Of a stretch of 64,000 bases of DNA, positions 43,275 through 45,707 are shown one piece after another (position 1 is the first letter of the stretch; the number at the start of each line of letters is the position of its first letter). The stretch comes from Promethearchaeota archaeon (lineage in GTDB: Archaea > Asgardarchaeota > Heimdallarchaeia > Hodarchaeales > Hodarchaeaceae): contig JBHLMN010000019.1 in NCBI GenBank assembly GCA_048938105.1, positions 1 through 64,000 of the forward strand, given 5' to 3'. Made by a program: the position numbers and the translations under genes. The notes under the pieces are model-generated. The model was given only the letters and a program-made list of their open reading frames with translations, did no database searches and was not told where the DNA came from.

Positions 43275-45707
43275 ATGACACAAAAAACCTCTGTATCTAG
43301 AATTGAACAATTAATAGAGAAGCATCCAGAGAAAACAAACAGAATTATCATTTTCGGATTTAAAATTAATATTCTTGAAAACTTTAGGTCATTTTTTAAG
43401 GACTTACATCCACGTTTAATCTTTTTAGATCTTTCAATGCATTATTGCTCTGTTAGAAGGGAAATACGGGAGGAATTTAAAGATCAATTGATAGAAAAAC
43501 ACTTTAATAACTCAATGAATAGAGAAAATACTCAAATATGTGAAATTACGGAAGAATTTTGGAGAAAAATCAAAAAATTAGTGAACTGTTGTAAATTTAT
43601 ATTAGATGGAGAGGGCTTTTTCTCAGTTAAGACGAATGGTTCAATTAAGTCTCATTTGAAAACCTTTCTAGATGGTATTTTTGGAGGTGAAAGGTTTGTC
43701 AACGAAATCATCATAAACTCCCCTTATAAGCACTGGTACACTCCATGTTCTACAGTTTTTGAGAGGACTGATTATATTTTACTTTATTCTCAAAGTCCTG
43801 ATCCAAGAATTAACCCTGTGTTAAATGAAAAAGAAAGTGGCGGATATTGGCATTCTTTCGTTTCTAAGGGTCAAGGTACACCCAAAAAATTCATTTTTCG
43901 AGATATAGGAGAAGTAATCTTGGCACCTCCTCCTGGAACTCACTGGAAATTAAAACAAGAAACTATTTTGGATCTATGTGCAAAAGGTCAGATTCGGTTA
44001 AATAAAAAGGGTAATCCAGAGTATTGGGTACCACCAAAAAGAGGCCAAATAATTGATTCCAATTGGTTAGATATACAAAGCTTCGAATTGGGCTTAAATC
44101 ACAAGTTTTTGATTTCTTCTAGTATTTACTCTAGACTAATGAGTATGTGTTTAAAGGAAAAAGATCTTTTCCTTGACCTGTCTGTTGATTTTGGAGAATC
44201 ACTTGTTGTTGCAGACCGATTGAAGCTGAAATGGATAGGATTGGGAAAAAATGAGCATATATTGGAGGGAATATCAAAAAAATTGACAAAAAATGGCATA
44301 TTTTTTACAGCTTATGTGTATAATTCTTTTACTGACTCCTTAGATAACTTTCGTGATTTTTACAATCAAAATAAAGTTGTTAATATCGTCTCACATGCCA
44401 AGAACGAGAAATTTCTTCAATTAACAGAGAAGTTCAGAACTCAACAACAGATACCTAATATGGAAAGATCAGTAGAATGGGCAAACATGTTGATTTTAGG
44501 GGATTCCTTTGATGTTATACCCCTTTTGGAGCCTAAATTACGGGAAAAATTAAAGGTAATATACATTGATCCCCCATTCTTTACTGGAACTAATGAGAAT
44601 ATCGTAATTCCTATTTGTTTATCAACAGAACGAGATTCTGACTCAACAGAGGATATTAATTACCCAATTGAGGATTTGGCGTATAAAAATGTTCTAGATG
44701 AGTCGGATCCTATCGACTTCTTTAAAAAATGGTTCAAAAAACGTATTTTACTAATGAAGCCTTTACTACGTGAGGATGGATTCATTTTTGTACGCTTTGA
44801 TTATCATTTCGGTCATTATGCAAAAATAGTGCTGGATGAAGTATTTGGACGTCAAAATTTTGTCAATGAGTTTTTAGTGCGAAGAATGAAGAAAAACTTA
44901 TCCCTAAAGCAGGCCTATAGTCAAACGCATTTGATTGTTCATTCAGATTCAGTTTTGACATATCAAAAAAGTGAGAAGGCTAAGCTTAAAACATCACATA
45001 TCAAGAAAAGGAAGAGAAGAAGCCAGGACTTCGTAGAGAGGCAGTATTCTAATGATAACATCTGGCTTGATATCGCAGGTTATGAAAAACTAAAGAAAAC
45101 ACTCTATCCAACAGAGAACTCTGAATCACTTCTATCTCGAATAATCCAAGTTTCATCCGAAAAAGGTGACATTATTGCTGATTTTTTCTGTGGATCAGGA
45201 ACTACCGTTGCAGTAGCAGAAAAATTAGAAAGAAAATGGTTAGGGGTTGATATTGGTCAATATTCTATTCATGAAATAAAGAAGAGAATTCTGAAGATAC
45301 CTTATTATAAACCATTTAATGTTCTTAAAATTTCCTCTTTTAATGCTCTAAAGACTTCAAATCGCAATTATAATGTTCCAATAGTTAAATTAAGATCTAA
45401 AGTTAGAGATAAGACACTAGTAATAACTATAACAGAATTCATTCCAAGTAAGTGTATAGATATTTCGAAAAAGCATGATTTTATTGATTTCATCGATTAT
45501 TGGGTAATCGATTGGAACTATCGGGGTAACGTCTTTGAAGCTCGTTGGTGTTCTTATCGGGAATTAAAGGGGAAAAAAGTATTGAAACACATCCTAGTAT
45601 CAGCCACTCATAAATACTCTAAAGCTGGGAGTTACATTGTAGCAGTTGCAGTTATCGACGTATTTGGGAATGATACGAAACAATTTATTGTTATTGAAAC
45701 ATGTTAA
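43275..45707 (+). CDS. Tandem-duplicated beta-class DNA adenine methyltransferase: degenerate N-terminal copy plus intact C-terminal copy
   Basis: C-half IYIDPPF, YPTENSESLLSRII, ADFFCGSGTT and Mod-type C-terminal domain (IDYWVIDW...DVFGND); N-half has IFLDLSM and FLDLSVDFGES at the equivalent positions. Confidence 0.82.
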   Translation: MTQKTSVSRIEQLIEKHPEKTNRIIIFGFKINILENFRSFFKDLHPRLIFLDLSMHYCSVRREIREEFKDQLIEKHFNNSMNRENTQICEITEEFWRKIKKLVNCCKFILDGEGFFSVKTNGSIKSHLKTFLDGIFGGERFVNEIIINSPYKHWYTPCSTVFERTDYILLYSQSPDPRINPVLNEKESGGYWHSFVSKGQGTPKKFIFRDIGEVILAPPPGTHWKLKQETILDLCAKGQIRLNKKGNPEYWVPPKRGQIIDSNWLDIQSFELGLNHKFLISSSIYSRLMSMCLKEKDLFLDLSVDFGESLVVADRLKLKWIGLGKNEHILEGISKKLTKNGIFFTAYVYNSFTDSLDNFRDFYNQNKVVNIVSHAKNEKFLQLTEKFRTQQQIPNMERSVEWANMLILGDSFDVIPLLEPKLREKLKVIYIDPPFFTGTNENIVIPICLSTERDSDSTEDINYPIEDLAYKNVLDESDPIDFFKKWFKKRILLMKPLLREDGFIFVRFDYHFGHYAKIVLDEVFGRQNFVNEFLVRRMKKNLSLKQAYSQTHLIVHSDSVLTYQKSEKAKLKTSHIKKRKRRSQDFVERQYSNDNIWLDIAGYEKLKKTLYPTENSESLLSRIIQVSSEKGDIIADFFCGSGTTVAVAEKLERKWLGVDIGQYSIHEIKKRILKIPYYKPFNVLKISSFNALKTSNRNYNVPIVKLRSKVRDKTLVITITEFIPSKCIDISKKHDFIDFIDYWVIDWNYRGNVFEARWCSYRELKGKKVLKHILVSATHKYSKAGSYIVAVAVIDVFGNDTKQFIVIETC

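What the first reader, a model, noticed from the sequence alone, without database searches (positions are those of the whole stretch)
43275..45707. Single-chain pseudo-dimeric beta-class methyltransferase with split labour
Seen: the N-half has dead catalytic and SAM motifs (DLSM, DLSVDFGES) but keeps a TRD-like insert (GYWHSFVSKGQG...PPPGTHWKLKQETI...GNPEY). The C-half has intact DPPF and DFFCGSGTT but only a short basic linker where the TRD should be. Known: beta-class MTases such as EcoP15I Mod act as dimers in which one subunit recognises DNA and the other methylates, and METTL3-METTL14 pairs an active with an inactive subunit. Inference: that asymmetry is fixed here in one polypeptide.
Basis: partly seen in the sequence, partly recalled or inferred. 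Interest (0 to 1): 0.72.

Follow-up and report, generated by a model that had tools for sequence, protein, structure and literature searches.

The report
Fused dead-plus-live DNA methyltransferase
One gene of an Asgard archaeon (Hodarchaeales) joins a catalytically dead copy of a restriction-system DNA methylase, which keeps the DNA-reading insert, to a live copy that has lost that insert; relatives carry the two copies as separate genes around a restriction helicase-nuclease, so a job normally shared by two identical subunits appears to be written into a single chain.

Summary
ORF 43275-45707 (+) encodes 810 aa with two homologous beta-class (PF01555) methyltransferase domains (halves compared as profiles: 99% probability, E 3.5e-18).

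- **N-half:** it has DLSM in place of DPPY and no FxGxG. It keeps a roughly 60-85 aa Mod-type insert, which is the best-conserved part of the protein.
- **C-half:** DPPF and DFFCGSGTT are invariant in 46 homologues. It has a roughly 55-residue deletion exactly where the insert belongs.
- **Fold:** both halves are predicted to fold like Type III Mod subunits (Z 22-24).

New here: the two halves belong to two separate clades (each with 100% support) that also exist as separate genes. In a Helarchaeota genome an N-type gene, a Type III Res gene and a C-type gene form one tight operon. Other archaea have the ordinary single Mod plus Res.

So the fused protein is a Res-less, chromosomally fixed descendant of a two-Mod Type III system. 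It is present in 18 of 20 genomes of the clade, in conserved synteny.

The "one half reads, the other methylates" mechanism is inferred, not shown. I could not check the packing of the halves against the EcoP15I Mod dimer.

The same family has already been reported by this scan in other genomes. I found no paper describing it.

The parts
43275..45707 (+). Whole gene: 810-aa fused N-type plus C-type Mod-like DNA methyltransferase
   Evidence: ORF list and translation. PF01555 found twice. Best PADLOC match is MTase_III PDLC03638, E 1.2e-60.
43332..44324 (+). N-half (residues ~20-350): catalytically degenerate beta-class MTase domain
   Evidence: PF01555 E 2.3e-8. AF2 model of this half alone has pLDDT 76. 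VIA-align Z 22.4 to 6k0w_B, 22.2 to 7dsu_B and 21.6 to 4zcf_B.
43428..43439 (+). Degenerate motif IV, DLSM in place of DPP[YF]
   Evidence: None of the 46 homologues has DPP[FY] here; D52 and S54 are conserved.
43797..44060 (+). Mod-type target-recognition insert (residues 175-262), the best-conserved stretch of the protein
   Evidence: Invariant S188, GGYWH (189-193), PP (218-219), G221, HWK (223-225) and PEYW (248-251). It has no counterpart in the C-half. PPPGTHWKLKQETIL... aligns to 6k0w residues 318-344. It lies between motifs VIII and X, where the EcoP15I TRD lies (PMC4490356).
44175..44201 (+). Degenerate motif I, DLSVDFGES in place of DFFxGSGTT
   Evidence: This segment varies freely among the 46 homologues, and the first glycine is D, N, R, E or Q.
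44325..44474 (+). Inter-domain linker (residues 351-400)
   Evidence: pLDDT is below 50 for residues 352-376 and 391-400. Column conservation is 0.21-0.30.
44475..45344 (+). C-half (residues 401-690): intact beta-class amino-MTase domain
   Evidence: PF01555 E 1.8e-37. VIA-align Z 24.5 to 6k0w_B and 23.8 to 4zcf_A.
44568..44579 (+). Catalytic motif IV, DPPF
   Evidence: DPP[FY] in 45 of 46 homologues listed (one reads DPPFL); D432, P433, P434 and F435 are invariant columns.
44958..45050 (+). Short conserved basic loop at the site where the recognition insert has been deleted
   Evidence: Alignment with the unduplicated relative P0123 places a gap of about 55 residues here, opposite P0123 residues 250-309. 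Conservation is 0.61-0.74.
45180..45206 (+). SAM-binding motif I, DFFCGSGTT
   Evidence: DF[FY]xGSGT is invariant in 46 homologues.
45372..45704 (+). C-terminal beta-sandwich domain (residues ~700-810), weakly PKD/Ig-like, role unknown
   Evidence: All-beta in the AF2 model. Weak PKD hits here (E 0.045-0.1) and in the stand-alone C-type protein of G126 (PKD_4 E 5e-4). It is shared with single-domain relatives P0123, P0124 and P0125 (44% identity to P0123).

Best explanation
The gene encodes a single-chain pseudo-heterodimeric DNA amino-methyltransferase derived from a Type III restriction-modification Mod subunit.

- The N-half (about residues 20-350) keeps the MTase fold and the Mod-type recognition insert. 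It has lost the catalytic DPPY and the SAM-binding FxGxG motifs.
- The C-half (about residues 401-690) keeps both motifs and has lost the insert.
- Proposed mechanism, by analogy with the EcoP15I Mod2 dimer: the two halves pack as an intramolecular dimer. The N-half insert reads the target sequence in duplex DNA. The C-half flips out the target base and methylates it. N6-adenine is most likely given DPPF, but N4-cytosine is not excluded.
- With one reader and one active site, the enzyme should mark one strand of an asymmetric site.
- Descent: it comes from a two-Mod Type III system (N-type Mod, Res, C-type Mod). It has lost Res and become a fixed chromosomal orphan methylase in Hodarchaeales.

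Shown here: the homology, the complementary motif and insert loss, its conservation, the predicted folds, and the split relatives with Res. Inferred: the packing of the halves, which half contacts DNA, the target base, and the biological role.
For: 1. Two homologous PF01555 domains are present.
2. Complementary degeneration is conserved in 46 homologues. The C-half DPP[FY] and DF[FY]xGSGT motifs are invariant. The N-half never has DPP[FY] and its motif I drifts freely, yet the N-half insert is the most conserved block of the whole protein (0.81-0.90).
3. The single-domain relative P0123 (same order, 685 aa) has everything in one domain. It aligns without a large gap to the N-half (E 2e-31). 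It aligns to the C-half (E 3e-45) with one gap of about 55 residues exactly at the insert.
4. Both halves are predicted to have the Type III Mod fold, with Z 21.6-24.5 to 6k0w, 7dsu and 4zcf. The full-length model has pTM 0.82, which argues for a defined arrangement of the domains.
5. In Helarchaeota genome G126, an N-type gene (599 aa), a ResIII-helicase plus RE_endonuc gene (872 aa) and a C-type gene (611 aa) form one operon, with a 2-nt gap and an 8-nt overlap. In G142 a Res 3' end lies directly upstream of a C-type gene. Canonical single Mod plus Res systems are the next relatives.
6. The tree shows an N-type clade and a C-type clade, each with SH-aLRT 100 and each mixing fused and stand-alone members, with mirrored topologies.
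7. In EcoP15I, ModA reads the DNA with its TRD and ModB methylates (PMC4490356). Class beta MTases are proposed to need such a dimer (PMC7544214).
8. The gene is intact in 18 of 20 genomes of the clade and lies in conserved synteny.
Against: - No biochemical data exist for any member.
- The C-half's own short loop and the C-terminal beta-sandwich are also conserved and could contribute to, or even dominate, DNA binding.
- Module-less relatives outside the C-type clade (for example G159) stand without an N-type gene within 5-6 kb, so a module-less enzyme may work by itself.
- The N-half insert is nearly invariant across lineages. That fits a fixed specificity, but it equally fits a structural rather than sequence-reading role.
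- Stand-alone N-type proteins keep an intact FxGSG motif I (G126: FVGSGT) and a near-canonical DLPY. In those relatives 'dead' is therefore not certain.
Confidence: 0.68

Rival explanations
1. Scaffold model. The N-half is a non-catalytic structural partner that stabilises or folds the C-half, as the RsmC N-domain does and partly as METTL14 does. Target choice is made mainly by the C-half's conserved basic loop and the C-terminal beta-sandwich. The conserved N-half insert serves the interface, or non-specific DNA clamping.
For: - The C-half loop (residues 541-600) and the C-terminal domain are conserved.
- The insert is nearly invariant even between distant N-type lineages, which is unlike the hypervariable TRDs of ordinary Type III Mods.
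- In RsmC the N-domain is needed for folding of the catalytic domain (PMC1934991).
- Short-TRD beta-class enzymes such as CcrM and M.MboIIA align over the whole C-half.
Against: - The insert occupies the TRD position (between motifs VIII and X) and is homologous to the insert of complete Mod relatives.
- The C-type lineage has specifically deleted it.
- The split pair is kept together with Res, as expected if both are needed for site recognition.
Confidence: 0.17
2. RNA substrate. The enzyme methylates an RNA (tRNA or rRNA) rather than DNA, in keeping with its housekeeping-like, vertically inherited position next to TGT-like genes.
For: - The gene is fixed in the clade, in conserved synteny beside TGT-family genes, TFB and a GTPase.
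- Some beta-class enzymes act on RNA: METTL3-METTL14, and M.EcoGII acts on any nucleic acid (PMC7544214).
Against: - The nearest relatives are Type III Mods encoded with Res nucleases.
- Structural matches to DNA MTases (Z 20-24) stand well above those to MT-A70 RNA/DNA enzymes (Z ~12-13).
- The neighbouring TGT-like protein matches the phage family phrog_887 (E 1.2e-22), while its scores against the tRNA-TGT models fall far below their cut-offs.
Confidence: 0.07
3. Dimer of pseudo-dimers. The chain dimerises again, for example through the C-terminal beta-sandwich. The functional unit would then have two readers and two active sites and could modify both strands or two sites.
For: - M.BceJIV and other beta-class enzymes form higher assemblies that engage two sites (title and abstract of PMC11380664).
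- The C-terminal domain is conserved and of unknown role.
Against: Nothing here tests the oligomeric state. EcoP15I Mod2 binds only one site per dimer (PMC4490356).
Confidence: 0.08

Closest known systems
EcoP15I Mod2 and other Type III Mod homodimers (PDB 4zcf, 6k0w, 7dsu)
   Same: - Beta-class motif order, with the recognition insert between motifs VIII and X.
- They are the best sequence and fold matches for both halves.
- One subunit reads the DNA and the other methylates (PMC4490356).
- Relatives of this protein are encoded with a Res helicase-nuclease.
   Different: - In EcoP15I two identical chains adopt different roles on DNA. Here the roles are fixed by complementary loss of motifs and insert, and the two parts are one chain.
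- No Res gene lies nearby, and none was found in the genome with the G126 Res as query.
- The C-terminal domain is a beta-sandwich, whereas the EcoP15I CTD is described as an alpha/beta globule.
Two-Mod Type III-like operon of Asgard archaea (N-type Mod, Res, C-type Mod; Helarchaeota G126, Promethearchaeota G142)
   Same: The N-type and C-type lineages are the same as the two halves here (each clade has 100% support). They show the same insert presence and absence and the same C-terminal beta-sandwich.
   Different: - The parts are separate genes with Res between them.
- The stand-alone N-type protein still has FVGSGT and DLPY.
- I found no publication describing it.
METTL3-METTL14 and ciliate MTA1-MTA9 (MT-A70 heterodimers)
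   Same: An active beta-class-type subunit is paired with a paralogue that has an eroded motif IV and helps bind substrate (PMC7544214).
   Different: - They are a different family. Fold similarity is only Z ~12-13, against 20-24 for prokaryotic Mods, and there is no MT-A70 Pfam hit.
- They are two chains, not one.
- Nothing here supports descent of one from the other.
RsmC 16S rRNA methyltransferase (tandem MTase domains)
   Same: Two homologous MTase domains sit in one chain. The N-domain does not catalyse and serves substrate binding and folding, while the C-domain catalyses. The authors describe this as subfunctionalisation by complementary degeneration (PMC1934991).
   Different: It is an RNA guanine-N2 methyltransferase and not a beta-class DNA amino-MTase; it has no Mod-type insert and no restriction-system ancestry.

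Membership tests
Beta-class N6/N4 DNA amino-methyltransferase (Pfam PF01555) | Significant match to the family profile | tested here: met
   C-half E 1.8e-37. N-half E 2.3e-8, 34.7 bits against a cut-off of 26.7.
Beta-class N6/N4 DNA amino-methyltransferase (Pfam PF01555) | Motif order IV...VIII, insert, X, I | tested here: met
   Both halves align collinearly with each other and with P0123, CcrM and Mod proteins.
Beta-class N6/N4 DNA amino-methyltransferase (Pfam PF01555) | Catalytic (D/N/S)PP(Y/F) and SAM-binding FxGxG motifs | tested here: met
   Met by the C-half only: DPPF at 432-435 and DFFCGSGTT at 636-644, both invariant. The N-half fails both, with DLSM and DLSVDFGES. The protein is a member through its C-half; the N-half is a pseudo-enzyme domain.
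Beta-class N6/N4 DNA amino-methyltransferase (Pfam PF01555) | Rossmann-type MTase fold of the family | tested here: met
   Predicted models only. C-half Z 24.5 (6k0w_B), rmsd 2.7, 254 residues aligned. N-half Z 22.4, rmsd 3.0, 235 residues aligned.
Type III restriction-modification Mod subunit | Closest sequence and structure relatives are Mod proteins | tested here: met
   PADLOC MTase_III PDLC03638, E 1.2e-60. The best PDB sequence hits are 6k0w and 4zcf. The N-half profile hits 7dsu (E 1.4e-7) and 6k0w (E 3e-6).
Type III restriction-modification Mod subunit | Encoded next to a Res (SF2 helicase plus endonuclease) gene | tested here: not met
   No Res among the neighbours or in five syntenic loci. 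No match in the own genome with the G126 Res as query. The feature is met in the split relatives G126 and G142. The protein is therefore a Mod derivative, not a component of a Type III system.
Type III restriction-modification Mod subunit | Homodimer of identical chains, each with a TRD and an active site | tested here: not met
   One chain carries one insert-bearing dead domain and one insert-less active domain. The oligomeric state itself cannot be tested with these tools.
MT-A70 family (METTL3/METTL14, MTA1/MTA9) | Membership by sequence profile or closest fold | tested here: inconclusive
   No MT-A70 Pfam hit down to E 10. Fold matches of Z 12-13 rank below all prokaryotic beta-class enzymes. 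I read this as a resemblance of design only.

The most novel reading that the evidence does not exclude
The fused reader-writer methylase may be one working part of a chromosomal DNA-modification island peculiar to Hodarchaeales, rather than a leftover of a restriction system. In the more divergent genomes of the clade it directly follows a DUF6884/YaaA-like gene and a TGT/DpdA-like gene (gaps of 1-13 nt). In another Asgard family a fused homologue sits beside a QueT 7-deazapurine-precursor transporter. Strand-specific methylation and guanine-for-7-deazaguanine exchange could thus be coupled, for example one mark directing or excluding the other. That would be an undescribed two-mark epigenetic system in the closest prokaryotic relatives of eukaryotes.
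Probability: 0.1. Interest if true: 0.85.

Novelty: new variant of a known kind. Interest (0 to 1): 0.6.

Why it matters
Class beta DNA amino-methyltransferases are thought to need a dimer in which one subunit reads the DNA and the other methylates. That idea rests on a few crystal structures of homodimers (EcoP15I, CcrM).

This family is a natural genetic dissection of the idea.

- It gives an experimentally convenient single-chain enzyme with one reader and one active site, on which the division of labour can be tested by mutating each half separately.
- It shows a graded series, from canonical Type III through two-Mod Type III to fused orphan. The series documents how a restriction enzyme component becomes a resident epigenetic enzyme.
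- It arose in Asgard archaea, apparently independently of the eukaryotic METTL3-METTL14 and MTA1-MTA9 pairs, which use the same active-plus-eroded design.

Tried and rejected
- **dPreQ1-methylase idea.** I asked whether the enzyme might methylate a 7-deazaguanine base, like phage DpdM. DpdM is a DUF3109 metal protein unrelated to PF01555 (PMC10516641), so there is no support.
- **Simple in-gene duplication followed by reciprocal loss.** This is rejected as the history. N-type and C-type are separate, well-supported clades that both contain stand-alone genes.
- **MT-A70 ancestry.** Fold scores are only about half those for prokaryotic Mods.
- **Genomic context of metagenomic homologues.** I used the genome search, the fetch from genomes and the search for related loci instead. 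I therefore could not confirm that P0139 (N-type) and P0131 (C-type) lie on the same 13,065-bp Logan contig; they merely share that contig length.
- **Superposition of the model on the 4zcf ModA/ModB dimer.** Model coordinates are not exposed to scripts.
- **Res in the own genome.** I found no match with the G126 Res as query. That call had no positive control of its own, although the same protein found Res homologues in other loci by tblastn/blastp.
- **Literature.** Searches for a two-Mod Type III system or a fused beta-class pseudo-dimer found none. The library lacks most subscription journals, so this is not proof of absence.
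Full report
**Observation.** ORF 43275-45707 (+) encodes an 810-aa protein. Pfam finds the N6_N4_Mtase family (PF01555) twice. The C-half scores E 1.8e-37. The N-half scored alone gives E 2.3e-8 (34.7 bits, above the 26.7-bit cut-off) over profile positions 10-218 of 221.

The halves match each other by BLASTP (E 9e-8 and 9e-6). I then built profiles from 18 orthologous N-halves (A2) and 18 C-halves (A3) taken from relatives' DNA. Compared as profiles, they give 99.0% probability, E 3.5e-18 over 265 columns, aligning residues 22-352 with 403-689.

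In that alignment the motifs correspond as follows:

| Feature | N-half | C-half |
|---|---|---|
| Motif IV | RLIFLDLSM | KVIYIDPPF |
| Motif I | DLSVDFGES | DFFCGSGTT |
| Residues ~182-243 | present | no counterpart |

All motif coordinates were checked.

**Conservation.** Full-length homologues (about 55; 780-870 aa; 40-79% identity) all come from Asgard archaea where a source names them. In an alignment of 46 of them (A1):

- The C-half DPP[FY] and DF[FY]xGSGT motifs are invariant.
- No N-half has DPP[FY], and the N-half motif I segment drifts freely. The first glycine is D, N, R, E or Q.
- The N-half insert is the best-conserved block of the whole protein (0.90, 0.81 and 0.86 per 20-residue block, against a mean of 0.48). 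S188, GGYWH, PP-G-HWK and PEYW are invariant.
- The segment between the halves (residues 351-400) is poorly conserved and has low confidence in the model. I read it as a linker.

So the catalytic and SAM sites of the N-half are under no selection, while its insert is under very strong selection.

**Fold.** The full-length AF2 model has pLDDT 79.8 and pTM 0.82.

- Its C-half matches Type III Mods and small beta-class enzymes: Z 24.5 for 6k0w_B, 23.8 for 4zcf_A, 23.6 for M.MboIIA.
- A separate model of the N-half (pLDDT 76.1) was searched against 48,161 PDB representatives without Foldseek. It gives Z 22.4 (6k0w_B), 22.2 (7dsu_B), 21.6 (EcoP15I Mod 4zcf_B, 304 residues aligned) and 21.4 (CcrM).
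- MT-A70 proteins score only 10-13 and unrelated folds score 6.5 or less.

The N-half is therefore predicted to be a genuine Mod-type MTase domain. The N-half profile also hits Mod sequences directly (7dsu E 1.4e-7, 6k0w E 3e-6). Part of the insert (PPPGTHWKLKQETIL...IRLNK) aligns to 6k0w residues 318-344. The insert lies between motifs VIII and X, which is where the EcoP15I TRD (aa 263-384) lies (PMC4490356).

**An unduplicated relative.** A genome of the same order (G022) encodes P0123, a 685-aa single-domain protein. It has DPPF, the YWH...GQG...PPPGRHW...PEY insert, DFFCGSGTT and the same C-terminal beta-sandwich.

- It aligns with the N-half over residues 99-337 without a large gap (30% identity, E 2e-31).
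- It aligns with the C-half (33% identity, E 3e-45) with one gap of about 55 residues opposite its residues 250-309, which is exactly the insert.

The C-half has thus deleted the insert, and the N-half has kept it.

**Split relatives and the restriction link.** A profile search of 1.84 billion representative proteins found the fused family (about 13 representatives) and two further groups:

- Stand-alone N-type proteins: P0139, P0188 and P0157.
- Stand-alone C-type proteins: P0131, P0132 and P0134-P0137.

All named sources for these are Asgard: Loki-, Hermod-, Hel- and Sigynarchaeota and Hodarchaeales. HMM scores separate the types cleanly, for example Ncore 225-289 against Ccore 27-53 bits for the N-type, and the reverse for the C-type.

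In the Helarchaeota genome G126, three genes lie on one strand with a 2-nt gap and an 8-nt overlap:

1. An N-type gene (599 aa) with the insert present, DLPY at motif IV and FVGSGT at motif I.
2. An 872-aa gene with ResIII helicase (PF04851, E 3.2e-20) and RE_endonuc (PF19778, E 4.9e-9) domains.
3. A C-type gene (611 aa) with DPPF and DFFCGSGTT, no insert, and a PKD-like C-terminal end.

Further loci fill in the picture:

- In G142 (a Promethearchaeota MAG), the 3' end of a Res homologue (64% identical) lies directly upstream of a C-type gene on a 3.2-kb contig.
- One uncultured-archaeon contig has a C-type gene followed by an N-type fragment at the contig end.
- The next relatives, in Thermoplasmatota, Nanoarchaeota and one Asgard genome, are ordinary single Mod plus Res pairs, with Res 33% identical to that of G126.

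**Phylogeny.** I built a maximum-likelihood tree of 48 MTase domains (325 columns, IQ-TREE quick search, SH-aLRT support).

- All N-type domains, fused or stand-alone, fall in one clade (support 100).
- All C-type domains fall in another (support 100). That clade is sister to complete insert-bearing Mods (P0138, P0059, P0060).
- The two clades have mirrored internal topologies. P0129 pairs with P0130 in both. The halves of P0127 group with the stand-alone G126 proteins in both. The Hodarchaeales sequences are monophyletic in both.

The N/C divergence therefore predates the fusion. The pair has co-evolved, and the fused or split state changed at least two or three times. Deletion of the intervening res gene is an obvious route from the G126 arrangement to a fusion, but I did not demonstrate it.

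**Status in this genome.** The fused gene is intact in 18 of 20 genomes of the clade; the two without it are about 70% complete. Genomes of the same class outside this clade give only single-domain hits.

Gene order around it is conserved in five orthologous loci: MTase(455 aa), TGT-like(-), DUF362, DUF6884/YaaA-like, TGT-like, (MFS), this gene, YjbQ, a 114-aa ORF, TFB. No Res gene is nearby, and none was found in the genome with the G126 Res as query. It is an orphan, vertically inherited methylase.

**Mechanism (inferred).** In EcoP15I Mod2, ModA reads the site with its TRD while its own catalytic cleft is empty and more than 30 A from the DNA. ModB accepts the flipped adenine while its TRD is off the DNA (PMC4490356). 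Class beta enzymes are proposed to need such a dimer (PMC7544214).

By that analogy, the most economical reading is an intramolecular dimer in which the N-half insert reads the target and the C-half methylates it. DPPF favours N6-adenine. One reader plus one site predicts one-strand marking of an asymmetric sequence. I put 0.68 on this.

The main rival (0.17) is that the N-half is chiefly a scaffold, as in RsmC (PMC1934991). Specificity would then come from the C-half's conserved loop and the beta-sandwich domain. RNA as substrate (0.07) is made unlikely by the Res-linked relatives.

**Novelty.** The design (active plus eroded paralogue, or tandem domains with split labour) is known from METTL3-METTL14, MTA1-MTA9 and RsmC. 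I found no description of it for a Type III Mod or any prokaryotic beta-class DNA methyltransferase, and none of a two-Mod Type III operon. The held library is incomplete.

After my own analysis, I found that this scan had already reported the same family in other genomes with the same reading. I rate it a new variant of a known kind, with interest 0.6.

**Limits.**

- There is no experiment behind any functional statement.
- Folds are predictions.
- The inter-half geometry was not tested.
- The tree is a quick search without bootstraps.

Noticed in passing
window 36822-41803: Upstream block conserved with the methylase: a 455-aa MTase (motif I region first, then a PF01555 N-terminal piece); two TGT-family proteins (38164-39132 on the - strand matches phrog_887 at E 1.2e-22; 40730-41800 on the + strand only weakly matches arcTGT); DUF362; and a DUF6884/YaaA-like protein (PADLOC PDC-M57A 5.9e-11, DpdC 1e-3). 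In the more divergent relatives (L011-L013) the DUF6884 gene, the TGT-like gene and the fused methylase abut with gaps of 1-13 nt, which suggests one operon.
   Followed up: partly
L044 (= L065, G281:C57) 1456-8250: In another Asgard family the fused homologue (778 aa) lies beside a QueT 7-deazapurine-precursor transporter (PF06177, E 2e-24), a dCTP-deaminase-like gene and two further PF01555 methyltransferases (349 and 733 aa). This is a second, independent link between the fused methylase and queuosine/7-deazaguanine genes.
   Followed up: no
window 14973-16073 (-): A second PF01555-type methyltransferase (open frame of about 422 aa) in the same window matches the C-half in two pieces (E 2.7e-23 and 1.3e-17). 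Syntenic copies occur in G003, G009, G011 and G014.
   Followed up: no
proteins P0044 and P0050 (fused homologues): Their N-halves keep DLPVY or DLPVF at motif IV, and FFCQFGQG or DFFCQFGMG at motif I. These look like less decayed intermediates. P0127's N-half still has VFSGSGE.
   Followed up: partly
L068 9899-12086: An uncultured-archaeon contig carries a C-type gene (566 aa) followed by an N-type fragment that runs off the contig end. The order is the reverse of the fused protein, with no Res between the two.
   Followed up: no
protein P0149 (1598 aa, metagenomic): A protein with three tandem beta-class MTase domains that all appear intact (DPPFNTG and DPFCGSGTT, three times each), behind a long N-terminal region. 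Unlike the dead-plus-live fusion, every copy keeps its motifs.
   Followed up: no
L043 2254-3384 and 11047-12255 (G126): The two-Mod Type III operon of the Helarchaeota genome is flanked by a DpnII/MboI-type restriction enzyme gene (PF18742, E 1.8e-12) and a weak integrase-like gene. That locus therefore looks like a defence island, unlike the housekeeping context in the window.
   Followed up: no
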